From Podarcis vaucheri (lineage: Eukaryota): DNA of 64,000 nucleotides. This document shows, piece by piece, positions 4,149-63,318 of this stretch. The notes below the pieces were generated by a model. It had not been told where the DNA came from. It was given only the letters and a program-made list of their open reading frames with translations, and ran no database searches. A program made the translations under genes and the position numbers. Location of the stretch: NCBI GenBank assembly GCA_965113315.1, contig OZ220369.1. One strand, given 5' to 3'. Within the stretch, counting starts at the first letter, position 1. Every line of letters begins with the position of its first letter.

Positions 4149-6509
4149 TGCTGGGTCTGGGGCAGTGTCCTCTGCCTTTTCCAATGGAAGCCGGTTTTGG
4201 CCAGGTATGGGTATGGTTATGACTAAACCTGTGAGTGTGTGGCAGGGTGCCTCTTCTAACAGCATCAAAAGGGCCCCCATTTTGTCAATATTGGGTGGAT
4301 ACTTTGAAAGGGGTAAAAAGTATCTGCAGAGAGGGAAATAGCTGAACCAACCCTCTTGGTTGGTTCGTTTACCTTTGGCGATGTTGCTGCTGCTTAGCCA
4401 GATCTGATGTACAGTCAACCACATCCCATTCATGGTACAATTCCCCGATTCACCCTGACCTGCTCATGAAATTAAGAGTCCACTGCTGTAATTTAATATA
4501 TATAAAAAAGTGCCCCAGCAGAAAGTGAGGAAAGATTGCCACAAGCAGGCTTTAAAAATGGGGGCAGAGGGGATTTACAGAAACAGGCCGGCTCCCTTGT
4601 TCTGGTTTTGGCCTCCAGATTTATAACCAGATGAATATTCAGCACGGCTTCTTCCTCTGTGCTTGGAGCTGAAGGAGCATGAGTTGGACTGCAGCTCCCA
4701 GCCAGAAGCTCCAGCTTGGGCCATGCAGCTGCTGTAAGAATGTCCACATTTCTCACTGTTTTAGGCTAGGAATGGAGAGCTTTTCACCTTCCAGTGTTAT
4801 TAAGACTCCCATCAATGCTGACCATGGGCTAGGCCGGTTTCTGGGCCTGATGGGAGTTAAGAGTTCAGCAGGCCTGGAGTTTAGGGCATGCAAGCCAGGT
4901 AGTCAGAAGGAATATAAATACAAATTGTGCCTATCACCTTTTTAAGCTGTTTTGCTTGCTTCCACCTGCCCCCCAAATTTGGAACATACCTGCCTATTCT
5001 GCCCCACAGAAACAACTTAAGGTTTTGGATAAATTCATTGAGCTTATTTATATTAGTTATGTAATGCAACTGTTTTAACAACTACTTATACCCAGATCTG
5101 GAGAGTGCAAGAGACTTTGATCTACCTTGTGCTCACCCTGATACTGTCCCAGATAGTCTAGAAATCGGCTGTGTTGGCAAATGGAAAGTGATGTTGGGAA
5201 AGGGGACAGTCTTGAAAGAAAGAGAAAGTGATGGGGAAAGTCAGTGGCTGGGAATTAAGGTGGTCTAAGGTGAGGGGGAAAGAGGGAGAGGCCTTTCCCT
5301 GTGCTTGACTAGGAAGGAATCAGAGAAATGTAGAGTTGAAAGGAACCATGAGAGTCATCTAGTCCAACCCTTTGCAATGCATAAATCTTTTGCCCAAATC
5401 TTTTGGCCCTGGGTTAAGAGTCTCATGCTTTACAGATCAAGCTTCCTCAACGAATGAGGGTCCATTAAACGGCCCCTGCTGCATTACCTCCACCTTTTGT
5501 GTTTGTTGGGCTCAAGAATGAGCATGTCTTGCTTTTCTGTCCTGGGACTGTCGAGTATCCAAGGATCACTGAACAGCACAGATGTAGCACAGATGGGGTG
5601 GTTAAAGTGGGGGAGGCAGAGCCCATGCTAGACATTAGGGGGCTTCCTTTGTCTTTGGATTGGCCAGGCATTCGAGTACAGAGCTTACCCATGCAAAGAA
5701 AAAAATAAAAGATGGGCTTGTGACAATTATTCCAAGAGAGATGCCACCACGTTTCTCATAGCAGCAGCATAGTGGTCAACAACCCTTTCTAAAGTAGAGA
5801 GAGAGCACAGCTGTGGACAGCGTTGAGTGTTGTGTGGTGAGGCACGAGCAAAGCACAGCGGTGGTGAAAACACGAGGTGGCCAAAGCAGCCAACTCAAGG
5901 CCCCTTGCAAGGACTGGGGAGCCTAGAAGCCTCTGAGAAAGCACAACTGCACCTGCTCCCTCTTGCTGGATCTTCCCCATCTCCCCATCCTTAGCCCCTG
6001 CAAGGCACAGCAGGGCCTGGTGTTGTCGTTGTTGTACATAGAGCCACAGCAGTCCCCTCCACCCTCCCCACAGCCCAGACGTCTTATGTGCGCTTGCGTG
6101 GGTGTCACGTTGTAGCCTCCTTAACTCTTATACTGTCGTAGTAATAACAGTTTAGTTTCTAACCAACCAACCTTCCTGTGGGTGCCCCCCTCCTCCCTGT
6201 CATGGCCAGAAATGACAACAGTGACAATGCGTGAGAAATGTTTGCATTTTGCTTTTTATTTTATTTTTATTTTTTTGTACAGAGGAAAAAACCCTTTAAA
6301 ATGTCTCTCTCAACTGATGTTAACTATTCTGGTGCTGTTAACTTGTTCTTTTTTCTAATTTATTTTCCCTACCCCCCCCTTTTGCTAGCAGCCCTGGCCT
6401 TACCCACCCACCCTCTTTCATTCTTAAAGTTAATTATCCTCTCCCTTCTCCCTTCATTTAAAATAGTCACTGCTACAAGTAACGAATGCACTGTGAAGAT
6501 TCCAGTATT

Positions 6510-9418: not shown

Positions 9419-12400
9419 TCAGAAAGCATAGCGGGTGCGGATGTCCTCTAGCTTCTTGGACACCTCTGGTGGGGTCCTGTCCAGCTCTTCAGACACGTTC
9501 TTCTGCTTGTTGGGCTCCATGGAGTTGAACTGCTCACACAGATCCCCATCAATGACATTCTAGCAAGAGAAAGAAAGAGCGGGGGGCTATTTTAGAAGCT
9601 GCAGCCCATGGAACAAAGGAGGGAATGGGCTCAAGCACAGAAAGCAGACCCAAAGCACACAGAACAAGAGGCCTTGTCTAAGAGGCCCAAAGGTTCTCCA
9701 CAAAAGTCACAATGAATAAAAGCAAATTCTCTCTTTAAAAAAGTACAGGTGTTCAGCAGACATTTGCCTAAAAGTGAAAAATGAAGGTGTCCACAAGTTC
9801 ATGGAATGGGGGGGGGGCGGGACAAAAAACTAGCAAACTCCAGCAAAAAACCTTGAACTGTCTTGCTCAAGATCACCCCAGGGCTTGGCATGTGGTGAAC
9901 TTGCAGGTTTAGAGCTACACTGATAATGTTGCAGTCTAGAAATGAAGACTTAACAGTGCTAATGCAAAAATAACCTGCTACATGACTCCTCATTGTCAGA
10001 GAAGCATTTCCGGAAATGCAGATTCATATGGGGGGCCAGAAACCAAATTCTGACACCATGGACAGTGCTGCCCTACCCATGATGTACAGGTGACCCAAGA
10101 GAAACACATGGTTTCCCAAGAAAAAAGAAAACCCACCTTGATACCTAGGTTAGTTCTAACGGGATGCTACCATCACCAGGGAGAACTGCAATAGGGAATC
10201 GCGGGGAGGGGGCTTGAAATCTATACTTATCACTTAGAAAAGATAAATATCTATTCAGACAAACCACCAAGATGGTGAAAAAGAAAAAGTCAGAGAATCA
10301 TGTAGACATATAGGCCCCACTGCTGATTACCCTTCTTAGCAAGCAGAATCCTGTCCTGGAAAGCCATTCCAGCAACCTCAGCAGATGCTCTGACCAAAGC
10401 ATAAAATGCAGGGGGAAATTTGGCCTTCACATTGGCAACTTTTACCCATGAACAGAGCTCAAGTGCTTACTAGCATATGATGGACACGTAGCAGAGACCC
10501 ACAAACTCAGCCTACCTTCACTGGGAAGTAATAGGAGCGGAAGCTGAGGTGGTCTCGTCCACAGAGAGGAGGGTGTTCAGACCTCAGATGCATCTCAACG
10601 TGCTGGAAGAAGTCATGATCCTGAAAAGAGCAGAGAGCACCATCAAAGGTAAAGGAAAACAGCTGGAAGCAGCAGTGTCACGCCACACCCGGGGCGAGCA
10701 TTGAAAAGAGGAGTGGCTGTGATTGGTACACTGGTTGACAACACGCCACCTGAACAAACCTCTTAGAGCAGGGGTAGGCAACCTAAGGCCCAGGGGCAGG
10801 ATGCGGACCAATCGTCTTCTCAATCTGGCCCACAGACAGTCCGGGAATTAGCGTGTTTTTATATGAGTAGAATGTGTGCTTTTATTTAAAATGCATCTCT
10901 GGGTTATTTGTGGGGCATAGGAATTGGTTCAGGTTTTTTTTCTTCAAAATATCGTCCAGCCCACCACATGGTCGGAGGGACAGTGGACCGGCCCAGGGCT
11001 GGAAAAGGTTGCTAACCCCTGTCCTAGAGAGAGTGAGCCCTCTGCAGGCTGGCATTCATCATTTTGGGGAAGGATGTATTTACATAGCAGGAAGTTCATC
11101 ACAAAGCACTGGTCCAATGTGGATTTCCCTCTTTGGAAACCTGCCTGGACTTCAGATATCACCTTATTTGTATCTGCCCATTCTTCCAGTCTCCCAAGAA
11201 GGAGCCTGACATATAGTTTAGAGGGTACAGGTAACAAACTAATGGGTCTATAACTGGCAGGATTTTTCTAATCACCCTTTTTGTATATTGGGGCAATTAT
11301 ACTCAGCTTCCACCCTTCCGGTATGCGACCTGAGCTGTTAATATATGAAAACTGTTTTGCAAAAATGGGTGACCAGAAATCCGGTCTTATCTTATAAATC
11401 TCCATTGGGATCATGTCTTCTCCTGGAGCTTTACTGGCTAGTTGGCTTACAATTAGCCTTTTAATCTGATTGGGCGTGATGTCTGGCCAGTCTGGCAGTT
11501 ATAATAACTGAGTATAGTAAACTTGTGAGGGTGGGTCAGAGTGGGGGCCATATATTCTTGTAAAATATGCCACCCAATCCTTTCCTTGGACAGATGCTTC
11601 TAACGAGTAGCCCAGCCCATTTGTACCGTGGGCAACCAAATGCCCAAATTTCCATGAGTCCTTTTTAGCTCTGCTTCATTCTGTCATGCAATAAAATTTT
11701 GGTCATGCCTCATGGCCAGAGCCAACTGGCAAATGTGGGTGTCACCTGTGTCAGCAACGGTTTTCAGGGTACATTATATTGCCAGGTATCAGTGTATGCA
11801 TTGGGGAGGGGGGAGACATACAGAGAGCAAAGAGAGCCATAGGCAGCTCAGGAGGTCCAACAGCAGCCAAGCTCAGTACGTGCATTAAAGCAGATCCATT
11901 TCTGATCCACACAAGGAAGAGCCAAGAGGCCAACTGTGGGCAGGGAGTGGCATAGCCTCCCCACCCTTTCAGCTTTCTCTTCCATCCTCCCATAACTCAC
12001 TGTCGCTACTGCAGGGCATTAAGTGCTCCTGCTGCACTATGTAGATGAACAACTCTTAATATTTCCATCATACGAGAACTTCCTACCTCATGTGATGTAA
12101 ACGGGACCAGAATGCCAATGCCCCCAGATAAGGTCGTGTAGACAAGAGATTCAGAGCCTCCGGGGATTAGAGTCGTCTTCTGCAGGGACAGGACTGTTTC
12201 CCCTACATGGTAGTTCATAATCACCTCTGCCTGAAAGTAAGACAAGCAAGACTTCAGCAGGTGACCTAAGATAATGCACTAAATCCAGACAATCTCATTT
12301 TCATTAAAGAAAACCTACATTTATCACTTCCAGTGGTTGGCGAGGACATTTCAAAACACACTTATAATGCAAACTTGCAACAGTGATTTCCTATGTGTAA

Positions 12401-15400
12401 TGCTTGGGGAGGGAGGTACTATTAGGCTACTGGAGTACATTGGACCCCTTCCATTATGAGCACAGTATTTCATTAGGACAGTATTTCACATTTCTAAAAT
12501 GAAGTGTCAATTAAATTATCCCCCCCCCTAAAACAGGAGGATTGTTGAAATATGTCTTAAAATTTACTTCCTGCTAGCTAAGTGTAAAAAATAAAATTGT
12601 GTAGGAGGGTTACCTCTCCTACAGTAACAGGGGTGCTATGAAACTCGGAAGGCATTTCAAGTATTTGCAAAAAAAAAATTAAGCAAACCTGAATCACTTC
12701 ATACTCCCTACACAGTGGTACCTTGGGCTACATACACTTCAGGTTACATACGCTTCAGGTTACAGACTCCGCTAACCCAGAAATATTACCTCGGGTTAAG
12801 AACTTTGCTTCAGGATGAGAACAGAAATCGTGGTCCGGCGGCGTAGCAGCAGCGAGAGGCCCCATTAGCTAAAGTGGTGCTTCAGGTTAAGAACAGACCT
12901 CCAGAACTAATTAAGTTCTTAACCCGAGGTACCACTGTACTGCTCAACAATTACATGGGGTCAGTTGTCCTGGGTTGTTTCTCCCCCATACTGTTTCAAG
13001 TTTCATTTAACTAACAGGGGTCCCAATGTTCCCCTATTGCAGTGTTTCCCAACCGCTGTTCCGCGGCACACTAGTGTGCCGTGGAACTTTGCCTTGTGTT
13101 CCGCGGAGGCGGGCGAGTCGGGCGGTGAGAGGCGGGGCGGCGGCGGCGAGCACACGCGGGGCGGCGAGCGAGCGAGCTCCCACATCCCATCGCCGCTCGC
13201 CACCTGGCCTGCGCATCCGCTCGTTACTGGGCCTGCCCCAGGAGGTGGGGTTGCGGGCATCACGCCCTTCCCCACGTGAGCGGGGAATCCCATCCGCCCC
13301 CACGTGAGCGGGGAATCCCATCTAATCCCATCTCAGCCCCCGCGAGAGCAGGGGAATCCCATCTGGCCATCTCAGCCCCCGCGAGAGCAGGGGGAATCCC
13401 ATCCGGCCACGCCTCCTGGCCAGCCAATCGGCTGGCTGGAGGGGGCGTGGCTTGTCCTTTTTAGGGCCGGAGCGGAGGGGGCTCGCCCTCTCTTCTCCGG
13501 CTAGCCCCATCGCTGCTCGCTACTGGGCCTGCGCATGCTCGACGGCACCAAGCAGGGGCCCTTGGCCGTGCCGGTGCCCACCGTGCCAGCCTCCGCCCAG
13601 GAGGGCGGCAAGCAGCCACCGCCACCACCACCCCCGCCGCTGCCCGGCAACCGCGCCGCCGCCCCCGGCTCCCCGCAGCGGGTGATCGTGCAGGCTTCGA
13701 CGGGCGAGCTGCTCCGCTGCCTGGGGGACTTCGTGTGCCGCCGCTGCTACCACTTCCCATTGCCGCTCAGCCTGCGCGTGCGCGATCGCGCCTTCGGGAT
13801 TCCCTTCAGCAGGCATCAAGCAGCCTGCCTCCCTGCTTTTTCCAATTAAGGGAACCTCCACTCTCCTGCCCCTCCGTGTTTCTCACCCCAAAGCCTTGTG
13901 GGCAGCAGGAAGTGGGGCCGCCCCGCCTCTACCCCACGCCGGGTGGCTGCTGACACGTCCCTTGGGCAGGAGAGGCATCCGGCTGGATGAAGGCAGCGAC
14001 GCCAGGGGAACGAAACAGCACGGCAGGTCTGAGTTGGTGCCTGGAAGGACACAGACTGCACTGCATTCCACAGCTCCGAGGCTGGCAGGTGAGTGCGTGC
14101 ACTCCTCTCTCTCATTTTATTTAATGTGCATTTTAGAAGCATGTGGAAATATCCTGCGTCATCAACCACTTTGGGGAAAGTGTGCGTGTGTGTGTTTGGG
14201 GCTAGATTTCATGCATGCCTTTTTTTAAAAAAGTTCTCTTCCTGCTTCATCCACATTCACCCCCCAAAAGGCCATTTTCTGTGTGCTGAATAAATTCTGC
14301 AACTCAAATGGCACGAGGTGCCAATGCATCGGGGCTGTGGAATTTATTCTGCTTGCAGAATTCTGCAACTCAACCGCATTTTGATGTTTAAATGTTGTAT
14401 TTTAATCTTGTTTTTAAGTTATATTTCAATCAACTTGTTTTATTATTGGTTTTTTTTTATTTCAATCAACTTGTTTTTTATTATTGTTTTTATTTCAATC
14501 GACTTATTTTTTATTATTTACTATATTTCTAATGGTGGTGTGCCGCGAGATTTTTTTCATGAAACAAGTGTGCCTTCGCCCAAAAAAGGTTGGGAAACAC
14601 TGCCCTATTGGAAAGGGAAACTGTCCCTCCTATCCCCAGGAACTTCTCAAAACAGAGTAGCGGGGAAATCACAAAGGTTTTGCCTGTATCATGTTACAGC
14701 ATTTCATGAACACAGAAGAGATTTTTCTGTGAACTTTAAAAAAATCCCCATTCCTTTGTGCATGAAAAACAACTATAAGCAACCCTAATTACAAAGCTCC
14801 AAAGGCATCTGCTTGACCACAGGAGTACAATTTCACTCTATGCAGGTGTTTAACTCTGCTCCACACTGCATTTATGTAGATACAGAAGCCCTTTCAGGCT
14901 CCAACCGGCGGACAGTCTTGTTATTAATTCCATACGGATACTGGCTTCTAAAACCAATTCACCATGACATGTTTTTTATCAGTAGACTTATGCATAGATT
15001 TATATATTTTTAAAAAGGAAGTTGCTGGTTCCAGAAAAAGGCAGGTAATGAAGTTAATAAATAACCAAAGAACAAGAAAGAGCCTCCAGTTTCTCATCTG
15101 AGGAAGCACCCCCTTCCCTACACCAAAGTTACCTTTTGAGAAGCCCCATTAAGAAGGCCTCTATCCCATAACGCCTTGTTTCCAGTTGGGTCCTCGTCTA
15201 CCTCATCATTTGTGTTGGGTGGTAGCCGCACCTACAGGAGGAGGCATCAAGAGTGTCAAACTCACGTGTGGTCTTAATGGCAAACGGGAATAACTGGAAG
15301 GTGTTGTAAGCATGAATTCAGAAAAGCCCAAACCAGCAAACACTCTGCATGTCACTTCAAACCACAATGAGTGCCCCAACCTGGGTTCACAGCATTTTTC

Positions 15401-60627: not shown

Positions 60628-63318
60628 CTATGGTTCCCAATCCTCCTCCAGAAGCTGTATTTGGAACCCAGCTGTGTCCACCTCCACAGTGTGGATGCTG
60701 AAATTCCCCAGGCCCTGAAAGGAAAGCATGCAGGGTGAGTGAAATATTCACTACAAAATATTTAAGTCAGAATATTTTGTTCTGAAGCCTGATGGAACTT
60801 CAACACTACAAGGGGGTCGACTGTCACTCCTGACCTGACATCAGGGCTACATGCCCTGGAAGGTCACAGGCCAGTGCAGAGGCCACTCTTCTCTTTGGCC
60901 AGGGGGCTACATTCTAGCTCTGCACATGTCTCCATCTGGCCCAAGCAAAGAGGCATCATCACAACTGAAGAGCCCAGCCAAAGCGCTCAAAGATTATGCC
61001 AAGCAGTGTTGGTGAGAAGTGCAGCCTGGGCAAGGGGTGTGGCCTAACCCTGGCCAGAATCTCAAGGGCCTGTTAGAGAGGCCTGGAGGGCCAAACTCAG
61101 CTCCCAAGTGTGAGGCTCCCCCTTCCTGCAACTACATGGTACCCGCCCATCACTGAATTTCCCCTCTCCGAATTTGCTTGGGAGAGGGTGTGCATTAACC
61201 TGCTCCTGAACCCCAAACCTGCAAAATGTGCCCTGCTGAAATTTCTGCAGGGAGACACTGATTAACAGGGACTTGGGAGCTGGCTCCACTCACCTCTGTT
61301 TCCGTCAAGATCCTTTGCAAGGCCTCTTGGTTCCTGGGCTCTTTAGTTAAGACATAGAGAAAGCCACCTCCTCCAGCGCCAGCCATGCTCTGCCCATAGA
61401 CATGAGGCTGGAGCACCTCCATCATGCGCCGGACAGCCAAAGGCTCACACCCAGGGGCCATATTCTTCTTCTGCAGCCAGTAATGATTCATACACTTGCC
61501 CAGGAGAGCCAGGTTGCCTGGGGTGAGGAGGAGGAGTTGCAGGACACTCTGGCATTGAACGATTTGCCCTTCTTAAAGCAAAGTTGCTAGGTCTCCTTTC
61601 CCTGTCAGATACAGCCATGACAGTGCTCTTGGCTCTAATCACATGGTGTGCATGTCAGCCTTCTTCCTTCTGGGAAAATCTGACACCTGGGCTGGGCTGC
61701 CCACCACAGAAGTGGGAAGATAGTAGCTCTGGCTGCTCTTCCCTGCTGCTTCTCTGTTGCTTTCAATCTAGCAAGAGGAGCGCTACAAGATCCAGCTAGA
61801 TAGAATTGCTTTCCCCAAACCAGTGAGTGCTGGCTGGGGCTGATGGGGCTTGCCCTCCAGATGTTTTGGACTGCAGCAATTTGGGGAAGGCTAAAGCCCA
61901 TGATGACATCTTAAAAGATGCCCCGCTCCCACTCCCATTGGCTGTTGCCTGGAGTAATTGCTCTGAAGCACACAAACACAACTACCCTGGTAGCTCCTGC
62001 AAAATGAGAGCCTGTTCAACATAGGAGGTGGTTTCTGTGCAAGGTGTTTTGTTTGGAGGTTCTAGCAGGGGAGCGCAGCTATCGTATACCCTTGACCGAA
62101 GAACGGTACACTCCTTCTATCTGGGATNNNNNNNNNNNNNNNNNNNNNNNNNNNNNNNNNNNNNNNNNNNNNNNNNNNNNNNNNNNNNNNNNNNNNNNNN
62201 NNNNNNNNNNNNNNNNNNNNNNNNNNNNNNNNNNNNNNNNNNNNNNNNNNNNNNNNNNNNNNNNNNNNNNNNNNNNNNNNNNNNNNNNNNNNNNNTTTGA
62301 GCAGAGGCACTGTAGCCTCTGCCCTGGGTAACGAACTGTACAAGATGCCCAAGGAACAAACTGCAGTACCTTGCCGAAGGGCCTGGGCACACTCCTCTGC
62401 GTTGTTCACCAGTGCGCTGGCATTCTGCACAATGGTGGGTAGCCGGGCATACCAGTTCCTTAGAACATCCTGAAAGAAAAGGAAGCAATTAAAGGTTGTC
62501 TGCGTTTCTGGTGCTCAAGAGTGCTTAGAGGAAGAAAGGCTTAGCAAATTCCAACTCCACAACCACCCTCCTGCACCTTGGGGAAAGTGCCAGTGTAAGA
62601 ATACTCTTTTTAACATTGTGTTTTAAATGAGAGCCATCCTGGTGTCATTGGTTAGAACGCTGGACTAGAACCTGGGAGACCAGGGTTCAAATCCCCACAT
62701 GACCATGAGATTCATGGAGTGACCTTGGGGGCCAGTCAGTGCCTCTCAGTCTAACCGATGTCACAGGGTTGTTAATGGAGATTAAATTGAGGAGGGAGAG
62801 AACCATGTTGGCCACCTCGAGCTCCTTGGAGGAAAAGGTGGGATATAATTGAAATAAATAATGAAATAAATTGCGTTTTACGTGACCCTAGGACCTTAGG
62901 TTGAAGGGAGGGTAATAAAACAATAAGAAAAGTATTAATAAGAATACATGCAACTCTACCAGGTGAGTCATCCTACCTGTGTAGACCAAAACACAAGGAT
63001 GAAGTGCATCATGCCAACAGCACAGGGAGAAAGGTACACCCGTTGTAGGACAGGTACAACTCTCTGCTCTAAGCTACGTCAGAGCTGTGGACCTCAGGCC
63101 ACAACTGGCACCTCCAAGCACCTTCTGTACCTGGAGCAGGTTGCGGGCCAGGCGGGTCTTGCCCGTGTACAGCAGGAGCAGGTGCTCATTCAGGGTGTAT
63201 ATGAAGCCCTCCGGGACGGTGATCTGCTCCACTTCTACTTTTAGTGGCAGCTGAGGCTTTGAACGCCCAATCTTGAGGCCTGGCACCAGCCCACCCACTT
63301 GATCCTGCCACCCTCCAC
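60628..63318 (-). CDS. FCSK: L-fucose kinase, last four coding exons: 63318-63131, 62469-62370, 61517-61294, 60714-60628 (stop TAG); rest of the gene lies beyond the window
   Basis: [19 protein letters not shown]...[15 protein letters not shown] | [11 protein letters not shown]... | ...[11 protein letters not shown]...[20 protein letters not shown] (GHMP kinase motif) | [13 protein letters not shown]...*; GT-AG boundaries and phases compatible; synteny with COG4. Confidence 0.95.
62049..62127 (-). pseudogene. 7SK snRNA-derived fragment (probable 3'-truncated retrocopy) in an FCSK intron; 5' part presumably hidden in the adjacent N run
   Basis: Reverse complement atcccagatagaaggagtgtaccgttcttcggtcaagggtatacgatagctgcgctcccctgctagaacctccaaacaa matches the central part of vertebrate 7SK (about nt 155-232). 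Confidence 0.88.
62128..62295. other. Run of 168 N (assembly gap or masked sequence)
   Basis: Directly visible. Confidence 1.
62632..62860 (+). mobile_element. Old tRNA-derived CORE/MIR-like SINE
   Basis: tggtgtcattggttagaacgctggactagaacctgggagaccagggttcaaatcccc head, gtgaccttggg core, cacagggttgtt, A-rich tail. Confidence 0.65.

What the first reader, a model, noticed from the sequence alone, without database searches (positions are those of the whole stretch)
13535..13849. Chimeric 104-aa ORF retaining the p39 N-terminal activator helix: possible CDK5/CDK2-binding decoy or antisense source
Seen: the ATG comes from element sequence (gcctgcgcATG) and is in frame with the CDK5R2 fragment, which has no stops or frameshifts. 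A 32-residue novel tail and TAA follow, and an AATAAA lies inside the element at 14289-14294. Established (from memory, verify): QAST(S/G)ELLRCLG(E/D)F(L/V)CRRCY is the N-terminal helix of the p35/p39 activation domain, and peptides from this region of p35 have been described as CDK inhibitors. The cyclin-box core and the myristoylated N-terminus are missing. Inference: if expressed, it could not activate CDK5 but might act as a dominant-negative. Transcription through SF3B3 intron 23 also yields RNA antisense to CDK5R2 wherever SF3B3 is expressed.
Basis: partly seen in the sequence, partly recalled or inferred. Interest (0 to 1): 0.7.

Follow-up and report, generated by a model that had tools for sequence, protein, structure and literature searches.

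The report
Lizard transposon carrying CDK5R2 gene piece
A young cut-and-paste transposon in a wall lizard carries a piece of the kinase-activator gene CDK5R2 at 38 places, eight of them inside a larger version that also carries a transposase gene, and the short reading frame flagged here is most likely an accidental by-product, not a working kinase inhibitor.

Summary
The ORF is real: element ATG + CDK5R2 codons 93-162 + 32-residue tail. It is cargo in a 1,563-bp hAT/Buster-type element (15-bp TIRs, 8-bp TSD) in an SF3B3 intron. The genome holds 38 element copies with the fragment. Eight are 4.2-4.3-kb composites that also carry a 626-aa transposase (5 of 8 intact) and moved as units; the window copy is a deletion derivative of one. 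Cargo traces to three host loci, including the composite's empty birth site. Another same-label sample shows the SF3B3 site empty, so the insertion is recent. The decoy idea is unsupported: the in-frame ATG exists in only 10 of 38 copies and arose by a late 43-bp deletion; 25 copies stop before most of the helix; substitutions fit neutrality (5 of 10 synonymous, 4.0 expected; low power). No RNA of this organism was available; in a relative the fragment has few reads and none with this subfamily's allele. Multicopy Pack-TIRs and cargo-carrying autonomous lizard hATs are published, and this scan noted similar non-autonomous Pack-hATs on other DNA. New here: coding cargo on an intact-transposase composite with a traceable assembly history.

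The parts
13032..13039 (+). left target-site duplication CCCTATTG (nnnTAnnn type)
   Evidence: sequence; identical 8-mer at 14603-14610
13040..13054 (+). 5' terminal inverted repeat, 15 bp
   Evidence: same end in all family members with ends
13055..13534 (+). GC-rich left arm (GC 0.70, CpG o/e 0.82) with internal repeats and CACGTG, CCAAT and GC-box-like words; origin not found, part matches a high-copy repeat
   Evidence: motif names are from recall
13535..13849 (+). 104-aa chimeric ORF (ML + CDK5R2 D93-Y162 + 32-aa tail)
13540..13751 (+). captured CDK5R2 coding fragment, parent at G000:C1:88226370-88226584
13700..13747 (+). codons 56-71, the only sizeable predicted helix (first helix of the p39 activation domain)
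   Evidence: (low confidence, mean pLDDT 50.8)
13752..13806 (+). element-internal repeat sequence that supplies the first part of the tail
   Evidence: (D2/D7 families)
13807..14529 (+). second cargo, from a non-TIR locus at G000:C37:1962430-1963247 (about 95% identical); supplies the end of the tail, the stop, the donor site and the AATAAA
14086..14094 (+). consensus-like 5' splice site CAG/GTGAGT (donor locus and older copies read GTGAAT)
   Evidence: use not shown
14289..14294 (+). AATAAA, inside one arm of an imperfect inverted repeat (14277-14360)
   Evidence: use not shown
14526..14529 (+). deletion joint (4-bp overlap TTTC) where about 2.7 kb of the 4.27-kb composite, including the transposase gene, were lost
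   Evidence: composite 1-1478 and 4193-4269 match window element 1-1490 and 1487-1563
14588..14602 (+). 3' terminal inverted repeat, 15 bp
14603..14610 (+). right target-site duplication CCCTATTG
   Evidence: single copy at the empty site in run X6 (record 13)
12231..15132 (-). host intron of SF3B3 (third from last), between exons beginning VRLPP (15231) and AEVIM (12230)
   Evidence: (CPSF_A matches); gene name from recall of the SF3B3 sequence

Best explanation
The ORF is passenger DNA inside a young hAT/Buster-type transposon, and it most likely has no selected function. Shown: a 2.49-kb transposase element became joined to 1.07 kb of its left host flank (G000:C19) and to a second left end, and this composite moved as a unit with its own 8-bp duplications. 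Its cargo was later exchanged for a stretch from C37 and 212 bp of CDK5R2 from C1. A 43-bp deletion between short direct repeats then put an element ATG in frame with the fragment in one sub-lineage (7 composites), and a further deletion removed the transposase to give three 1.55-kb copies, one of which is in SF3B3. Inferred: the captures happened by template switching during repair of broken or excised elements; the intact composites supply the transposase that moved the window copy; the ORF is open in 9 of 10 copies because they are too young (mean 1% apart) to have decayed.
For: 38 element copies plus the parent; 37 of 38 have identical 8-bp TSDs, 34 different 8-mers, TA at positions 4-5 in 36 of 37. 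Eight composites with TSDs, 5 with an intact 626-aa ORF and all six motifs checked. Donor loci without TIRs on three contigs. Pre-capture elements exist (L013, L079) and the capture is flanked by a short duplication of element sequence. ATG out of frame by 49 nt in the three older long copies, in frame only in 10; trees place these 10 in the youngest clade (CDK5R2-composite clade 100/99 on the transposase tree, cargo tree weakly supported). Neutral tests: 5 of 10 substitutions synonymous vs 4.0 expected, P=0.36; chance of no stop 0.93; 10 substitutions in 315 bp vs 44 in 1175 bp, P=0.39; 1 of 9 indel events in the ORF. Empty SF3B3 site in run X6.
Against: The neutral tests have little power (10 events). 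The ATG is the first on the element's + strand and 9 of 10 copies keep the frame. The sub-lineage with the ATG is the one that spread most recently, which selection at the level of the element could also give. The splice donor changed from GTGAAT to GTGAGT inside the element lineage. No RNA of this organism was laid, so silence is not shown. Transposase activity is inferred from sequence only. The empty site rests on one contig of one run that differs about 1% in the flanks.
Confidence: 0.76

Rival explanations
1. The ORF matters to the transposon, not to CDK5: in the composite the GC-rich arm would act as promoter, the donor at 14089 would splice to the acceptor in front of the transposase gene, and the 104-aa ORF would be an upstream ORF that dampens transposase output (stop 240 nt before the junction, so a likely nonsense-mediated-decay target).
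For: The acceptor before the transposase ORF is used in the related organism B: sense coverage starts there and most upstream letters belong to a host exon ending CAG/GT. Three reads of run X21 join left-arm sequence (L071:1758) to the acceptor (2991), letters between not known. 14 of 15 transposase-bearing copies inspected carry upstream cargo. Donor site moved towards consensus.
Against: No read joined the 14089-type donor to the acceptor in four runs (those runs are of organism B, whose expressed alleles match the older L179/L180 type at 23 of 26 sites). The TATA-like word of related copies is changed in CDK5R2 copies. The window copy has lost the acceptor.
Confidence: 0.1
2. The copies act as RNA: intronic copies read antisense by host genes (here SF3B3), or transposon-directed small RNAs, would pair with CDK5R2 mRNA and lower it in trans.
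For: Orientation is antisense to SF3B3 transcription; 38 copies are 94-100% like the parent over 170-212 bp. In organism B three stranded reads across the ancestral junction came from the antisense strand (X23 2, X24 1). Tan et al. raise this possibility for Pack-TIRs (PMC8277862, discussion passage).
Against: Read depth over the fragment in organism B is 0-3.7 on either strand against 25-80 over the transposase (human-like reads are filtered, so the level is uncertain). Excised introns are short-lived (general knowledge). Eight A(A/T)TAAA words on the SF3B3 strand lie upstream of the fragment and could end transcripts first (untested). The insertion is absent in another sample.
Confidence: 0.08
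3. One reading: the ORF is translated and its helix binds CDK5 or CDK2 without activating them, acting as a dominant-negative decoy.
For: The helix sequence is unchanged from the parent in the window copy and aligns to the first 20 residues of crystallised p25 constructs. A p35-derived CDK-inhibitory peptide exists (Chin et al. 1999, title only; that it is the 29-mer starting at this QAST is my recall).
Against: Only 10 of 38 copies have the ATG; 25 stop at QASTGEL; one ATG copy is frameshifted before the helix and one has R159C in it. Weak start context. The product is predicted mostly disordered. Documented p25-CDK5 contacts are the alpha1-alpha2 and alpha3-alpha4 loops (PMC6170502 passage) and P5 comes from alpha5 (PMC4381256 passage); none is in the fragment. 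At the site that marks the ATG sub-lineage, 7 of 7 organism-B reads had the parent base.
Confidence: 0.05
4. Assembly artefact or segmental duplication.
For: Two copies share the same TSD 8-mer (L002, L076).
Against: Their flanks differ; 34 different TSDs among 37 copies; a contig of run X1 spans the 3' end into the flank and X6 shows the empty site.
Confidence: 0.01

Closest known systems
Multicopy Pack-TIRs of animals, e.g. Pack-hAT-N8_XT with the CAPSL 5' UTR (Tan et al. 2021, PMC8277862; read: abstract, parts 1-2 of 10 and keyword passages)
   Same: Host fragment of about 200 bp with an identifiable parent away from any TIR, inside a TIR element, re-transposed with distinct TSDs, GC-rich cargo, microhomology at joints.
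   Different: That survey found 4 multicopy cases among 281 unique Pack-TIRs, the figured one with 3 copies; here 38. Here the cargo is coding sequence and 8 copies also carry the transposase gene; the passages read mention no such case.
hobo_AC of Anolis carolinensis (Novick et al. 2011, PMC3014272; read: keyword passages)
   Same: Young lizard hAT family whose autonomous copies took up extraneous genomic DNA, exchanged parts between elements and gave many non-autonomous families.
   Different: Cargo described there is genomic DNA with TE fragments; the words exon, host gene and cellular gene do not occur in that paper. Here a named gene's coding fragment is carried and donor loci and the birth site are found.
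Buster family of hAT transposons (TcBuster, AnBuster; PMC12637253 and PMC3517528, keyword passages)
   Same: 8-bp nnnTAnnn TSD, 14-16-bp TIRs, one ORF of 597-677 aa, core element about 2.5 kb.
   Different: The working unit here is 3.9-4.3 kb with two left ends; closest named proteins are ZBED5-like/SCAND3-like hits in lizards, frogs and fish at 77-98%; no tree against reference Buster transposases was made.
Ssk-FB4 of Drosophila (PMC8277862)
   Same: Young, polymorphic, multicopy Pack-TIR with coding cargo.
   Different: Ssk-FB4 holds nearly the whole gene with peptide and selection evidence; here 70 of 312 codons and no such evidence.
p35-derived CDK5 inhibitors CIP and P5 (PMC4381256, PMC5170856 passages) and the Chin et al. 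1999 peptide (title only)
   Same: A fragment of a CDK5 activator that cannot activate.
   Different: CIP has 125-126 residues and P5 comes from helix alpha5; neither is contained here. Only the recalled Chin peptide overlaps (20 of 29 residues).

Membership tests
hAT/Buster DNA transposons | 8-bp target-site duplication with nnnTAnnn consensus | tested here: met
   37 of 38 CDK5R2 copies have identical 8-mers; TA at 4-5 in 36 of 37; consensus from PMC3517528
hAT/Buster DNA transposons | short TIRs (14-16 bp) | tested here: met
   15-bp perfect TIRs; range from PMC12637253
hAT/Buster DNA transposons | single 600-680-aa transposase ORF with BED finger and DDE-type motifs | tested here: met
   626 aa in 5 of 8 CDK5R2 composites; CxxC..H..H, D212, D278, CxxH, W368, E578 present (role of the residues from recall); hits named ZBED5-like/SCAND3-like. 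Absent from the window copy.
hAT/Buster DNA transposons | groups with reference Buster transposases in a tree | not tested
   no reference Buster protein was fetched; the PDB sequence search found nothing at E<=0.01
hAT/Buster DNA transposons | transposase excises and inserts these ends | not testable with these tools
   indirect only: young copies, intact TSDs, one empty site
Pack-TIR, multicopy class | internal non-TE sequence with an identifiable parent not linked to a TIR | tested here: met
   parent CDK5R2, no TIR within the 10 kb fetched; C37 and C19 donors without TIRs in the stretches fetched
Pack-TIR, multicopy class | several copies with distinct TSDs, away from the parent | tested here: met
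   38 copies on many contigs, 34 distinct TSDs
Pack-TIR, multicopy class | microhomology at capture breakpoints | tested here: met
   CC at the left joint, C at the right, with a short duplication of element sequence; length not tested against chance
CDK5 activators (p35/p39) | complete cyclin-box-like activation domain | tested here: not met
   1 of 7 predicted helices present; PF03261 positions 178-206 of 336
CDK5 activators (p35/p39) | N-terminal Met-Gly myristoylation segment | tested here: not met
   ORF begins MLDG; parent begins MGTV
p35-derived CDK inhibitory peptides | contains CIP or the P5 (alpha5) segment | tested here: not met
   fragment ends at parent Y162, before the second helix
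p35-derived CDK inhibitory peptides | binds and inhibits CDK5 or CDK2 | not tested
functional chimeric new gene (Ssk-FB4 type) | transcription and translation of the chimeric ORF | tested here: inconclusive
   RNA only from organism B; no ATG-lineage allele in 7 reads; human-like reads filtered
functional chimeric new gene (Ssk-FB4 type) | signature of selection on the ORF | tested here: inconclusive
   no departure from neutral, low power

The most novel reading that the evidence does not exclude
A still-mobile vertebrate cut-and-paste transposon has built a new transcription unit out of host parts: a GC-rich arm, an ATG fused to the p39 helix, and a sharpened splice donor leading to its own transposase exon. 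The 104-aa ORF is translated and is kept because it either throttles the transposase as an upstream ORF or delivers a CDK-damping peptide in germ cells.
Probability: 0.1. Interest if true: 0.8.

Novelty: new variant of a known kind. Interest (0 to 1): 0.5.

Why it matters
Gene capture by cut-and-paste transposons is known in animals mostly from old, single copies, so its steps are inferred. Here the steps are all still in one genome: the empty birth site, three donor loci, elements before and after each capture, intact transposase copies and a site that is empty in another sample. That makes the template-switching models for multicopy Pack-TIRs testable in a vertebrate, and shows how an in-frame chimeric ORF can arise by one small deletion. 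It also warns that 38 near-identical CDK5R2 fragments will confuse read mapping and annotation in wall lizards. The decoy protein itself is a long shot.

Tried and rejected
Exact look-up of the 104-aa product, the transposase and the three activator paralogs in the protein collection: 0 of 5 found; uninformative, since the host's own genes were also absent. Sequencing-run search: no RNA holder listed on record; RNA runs laid were of organism B only. PDB sequence search with the transposase: no match. Donor of the GC-rich left arm not found: the 30 loci fetched of 40 scored were all element copies, so I do not call it a captured host promoter. Donor of the 1.43-kb nested family not found (40 scored of 1044 candidates). 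No complex with CDK5 was folded: no CDK5 sequence was held, and a pass by likeness to p25-CDK5 would not address expression. Chin et al. 1999 and PMC2962518 were not held; a search for the peptide's residue range gave nothing useful. Segmental duplication rejected. CDK5R1 or the third paralog as parent rejected: 79% against 99%. In the substitution test L018 and L145 were dropped for large internal deletions. Literature searches for this family (CDK5R2 + transposon + lizard: 0 papers; Podarcis + hAT terms, listings only; autonomous cargo in vertebrates: 1 review, PMC6431247 passages) found no description; subscription papers and repeat libraries such as Repbase and Dfam were not searched, and the supplements of PMC8277862 were not opened, so its case list may hold closer examples.

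Full report
OBSERVATION. Window 13535-13849 (+) reads 104 codons without stop. Residues 45-73 match Pfam PF03261 at 34.2 bits, positions 178-206 of 336, and residues 53-72 match the start of crystallised p25 chains. The genome has three full-length CDK5 activator genes; the fragment is 212 of 215 bases identical to the one on C1 and 79% to the other two. That gene is 99% identical to Podarcis muralis CDK5 activator 2, so the source is CDK5R2 and the host is most likely a wall lizard. The ORF is ML + D93-Y162 + 32 residues. The ATG is the first on the element's + strand, in a weak context.

THE ELEMENT. The ORF lies in a 1,563-bp element (13040-14602) with perfect 15-bp TIRs and an 8-bp duplication CCCTATTG, inside the third-from-last intron of SF3B3 on the opposite strand (gene name and intron number from recall). 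A 27-base pattern from the fragment has 39 matches in the genome, control 0: the parent and 38 element copies. All 38 were fetched. 37 have identical 8-bp duplications, 34 of them different, 36 with TA in the middle, the Buster consensus given in PMC3517528 (passages).

FOUR CLASSES OF COPY. (a) 25 short copies of about 900-970 bp that stop at QASTGEL and have no in-frame ATG; the 24 with both ends are 2.3% apart on average. (b) Two copies of 1,369 and 1,493 bp with the ancestral junction. (c) Eight composites of 4.2-4.3 kb (one lengthened by a nested insertion), bounded by their own duplications, in which about 1.79 kb of cargo is followed by a second left end and a 2.48-kb transposase unit. 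Five of the eight keep a 626-aa ORF with all six motifs checked; seven compared are 0.8% apart. The protein's named relatives are ZBED5-like and SCAND3-like proteins of lizards, snakes, frogs and fish. (d) Three copies of 1,552-1,563 bp, among them the window's, 0.3% apart, which equal composite positions 1-1478 joined to the last 77 bases over a 4-base overlap.

HOW IT WAS BUILT. A search with the transposase unit (40 of 317 candidates scored) gave 15 copies with most of the ORF; 14 carry upstream cargo ending in the same 8 bases before the inner left end (13 with duplications checked). Those 8 bases and 1.07 kb before them occur at G000:C19:44904849-44905914 with no element and no TIR in the 4 kb fetched: the birth site, empty in this assembly. 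The oldest composites (L179-L181) carry the whole 1.07 kb. Later ones keep its last 109 bases and carry 818 bp from a TIR-free locus on C37. Elements with this cargo but without CDK5R2 exist (L013, L014, L079-L081). The CDK5R2 piece sits at a site in an element repeat, flanked by a short duplication of that repeat. On the transposase tree the eight CDK5R2 composites form one clade (100/99) nested among those without it (14 rows, L182 left out, midpoint root only); the cargo tree agrees but has no strongly supported branch. Template switching during repair is my inference from these joints and from the models in PMC8277862.

ORIGIN OF THE ORF. In the three long copies with the ancestral junction (L012, L018, L078) the same ATG lies 49 bases before the first CDK5R2 codon, out of frame. 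In ten copies (seven composites and the three 1.55-kb copies) 43 bases are missing and the ATG is in frame; L078, their nearest relative, has a 5-base direct repeat at the two ends of the missing piece. Nine of the ten keep 104 codons; L072 has a one-base deletion before the helix and L077 has R159C in it. The tail, stop, splice donor and AATAAA come from element repeat and the C37 piece.

SELECTION. Among the ten copies, 5 of 10 private substitutions in the ORF are synonymous against 4.0 expected when the same changes are placed at random in the same context (P=0.36), and the chance of no stop was 0.93. In the fragment alone: 3 of 7 synonymous (2.5 expected); the short copies, which cannot make the protein, give 14 of 42 (15.2 expected; L145 dropped). 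Substitution density is 10 in 315 bases against 44 in 1,175 (P=0.39), and 1 of 9 indel events falls in the ORF. Nothing departs from neutral, but the numbers are small.

AGE. A 2,030-base contig of run X6 (same organism label as the best holder, another study) joins 13031 to 14603 with 113 and 798 bases on the two sides: the empty site with one copy of the target. A contig of X1 runs from inside the right end into the flank. Run X9 of organism B holds the ancestral junction, so the capture is older than the split of A and B, while the SF3B3 insertion is not fixed.

EXPRESSION. No RNA of organism A was listed. Four organism-B runs were laid on a composite and one of them also on the window, 6-12% of each raw run read. 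The transposase exon is covered at depth about 25-80 in the sense direction from the acceptor onward; its alleles match the older L179/L180 type at 23 of 26 sites, and most upstream letters belong to a host exon found twice on C26 and ending in CAG/GT. Three reads join left-arm sequence to the acceptor. Over the CDK5R2 fragment depth is 0-3.7 on either strand; three stranded reads cross the ancestral junction from the antisense strand; 7 of 7 reads at the ATG-lineage marker carry the parent base. Human-like reads are filtered, so these levels are lower bounds, and organism B may lack the ATG lineage altogether.

THE DECOY IDEA. A single-sequence model of the product is low in confidence (pLDDT 50.8) with one helix at 56-71; the parent model has seven helices from 146 to 293, of which the fragment holds the first. 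Reviews name the alpha1-alpha2 and alpha3-alpha4 loops as main p25 contacts (PMC6170502, passages) and place P5 in alpha5 (PMC4381256, passages). That the Chin et al. 1999 peptide covers this helix is my recall; only the title was seen. Binding in vitro is therefore possible, but nothing points to a protein being made or kept.

COMPARISON. Multicopy Pack-TIRs were 4 of 281 in 100 animal genomes (PMC8277862). Autonomous hAT copies with extraneous DNA are described for Anolis hobo_AC (PMC3014272). Earlier notes of this scan list several non-autonomous Pack-hATs in sharks, a skate and a lizard (unchecked). I found no description of this family (limits given under Tried and rejected). The case is a new variant: coding cargo riding on a composite with an intact transposase gene, with donors and birth site in view.

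VERDICT. Observation confirmed; decoy reading unlikely (0.05); best explanation is neutral cargo in a young Buster-type composite family (0.76). Interest 0.5, for the element and its traceable history more than for the ORF.

Noticed in passing
window 12712-12939: A short, very high-copy element with inverted ends, TA-flanked, 100 bases left of the hAT insertion; looks like a Tc1/mariner-type MITE (class from recall).
   Followed up: no
L076 (G000:C38:39285.2-39286.6 kb), nested near the composite's 3' end: A 1,428-bp element with the same TIRs carrying what looks like a promoter and first coding exon with splice donor; at least 40 copies at 93-97%. Donor gene not found.
   Followed up: partly
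L222 (G000:C19:44904849-44905970): Empty birth site of the composite; the captured flank begins at a donor-like CTGGCAG/GTATTG that is kept in many derived elements.
   Followed up: yes
L187, L188 (G000:C26:27548792 and 27551100, - strand): A tandemly duplicated host exon that in organism B is spliced to the transposase exon; no transposase copy was listed near it in this genome. Possible gene-trap insertion private to B.
   Followed up: partly
L062 (G000:C33:61976748-61977365): A third intact CDK5 activator gene (317 aa) besides CDK5R1-like and CDK5R2.
   Followed up: no
window 14125-14515, - strand: Eight AATAAA/ATTAAA words on the SF3B3 sense strand inside the element; possible premature polyadenylation of an essential splicing gene.
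   Followed up: no
L190-L218: A 681-bp family of at least 28 fetched copies with the same ends and a duplicated GC-rich arm, 0.8% apart.
   Followed up: partly
L080/L148 (G000:C41:8.61-8.62 Mb): A composite whose transposase is interrupted by two large insertions, one with a 994-aa ORF.
   Followed up: no
P0002 (L071:3160-5040): The transposase is 85-93% identical to proteins of Xenopus, Rana, Pleurodeles and Thamnophis and about 80% to fish and a tunicate, a pattern that suggests horizontal transfer.
   Followed up: no
window 62128-62295: The only run of N in the window, far from the finding.
   Followed up: no
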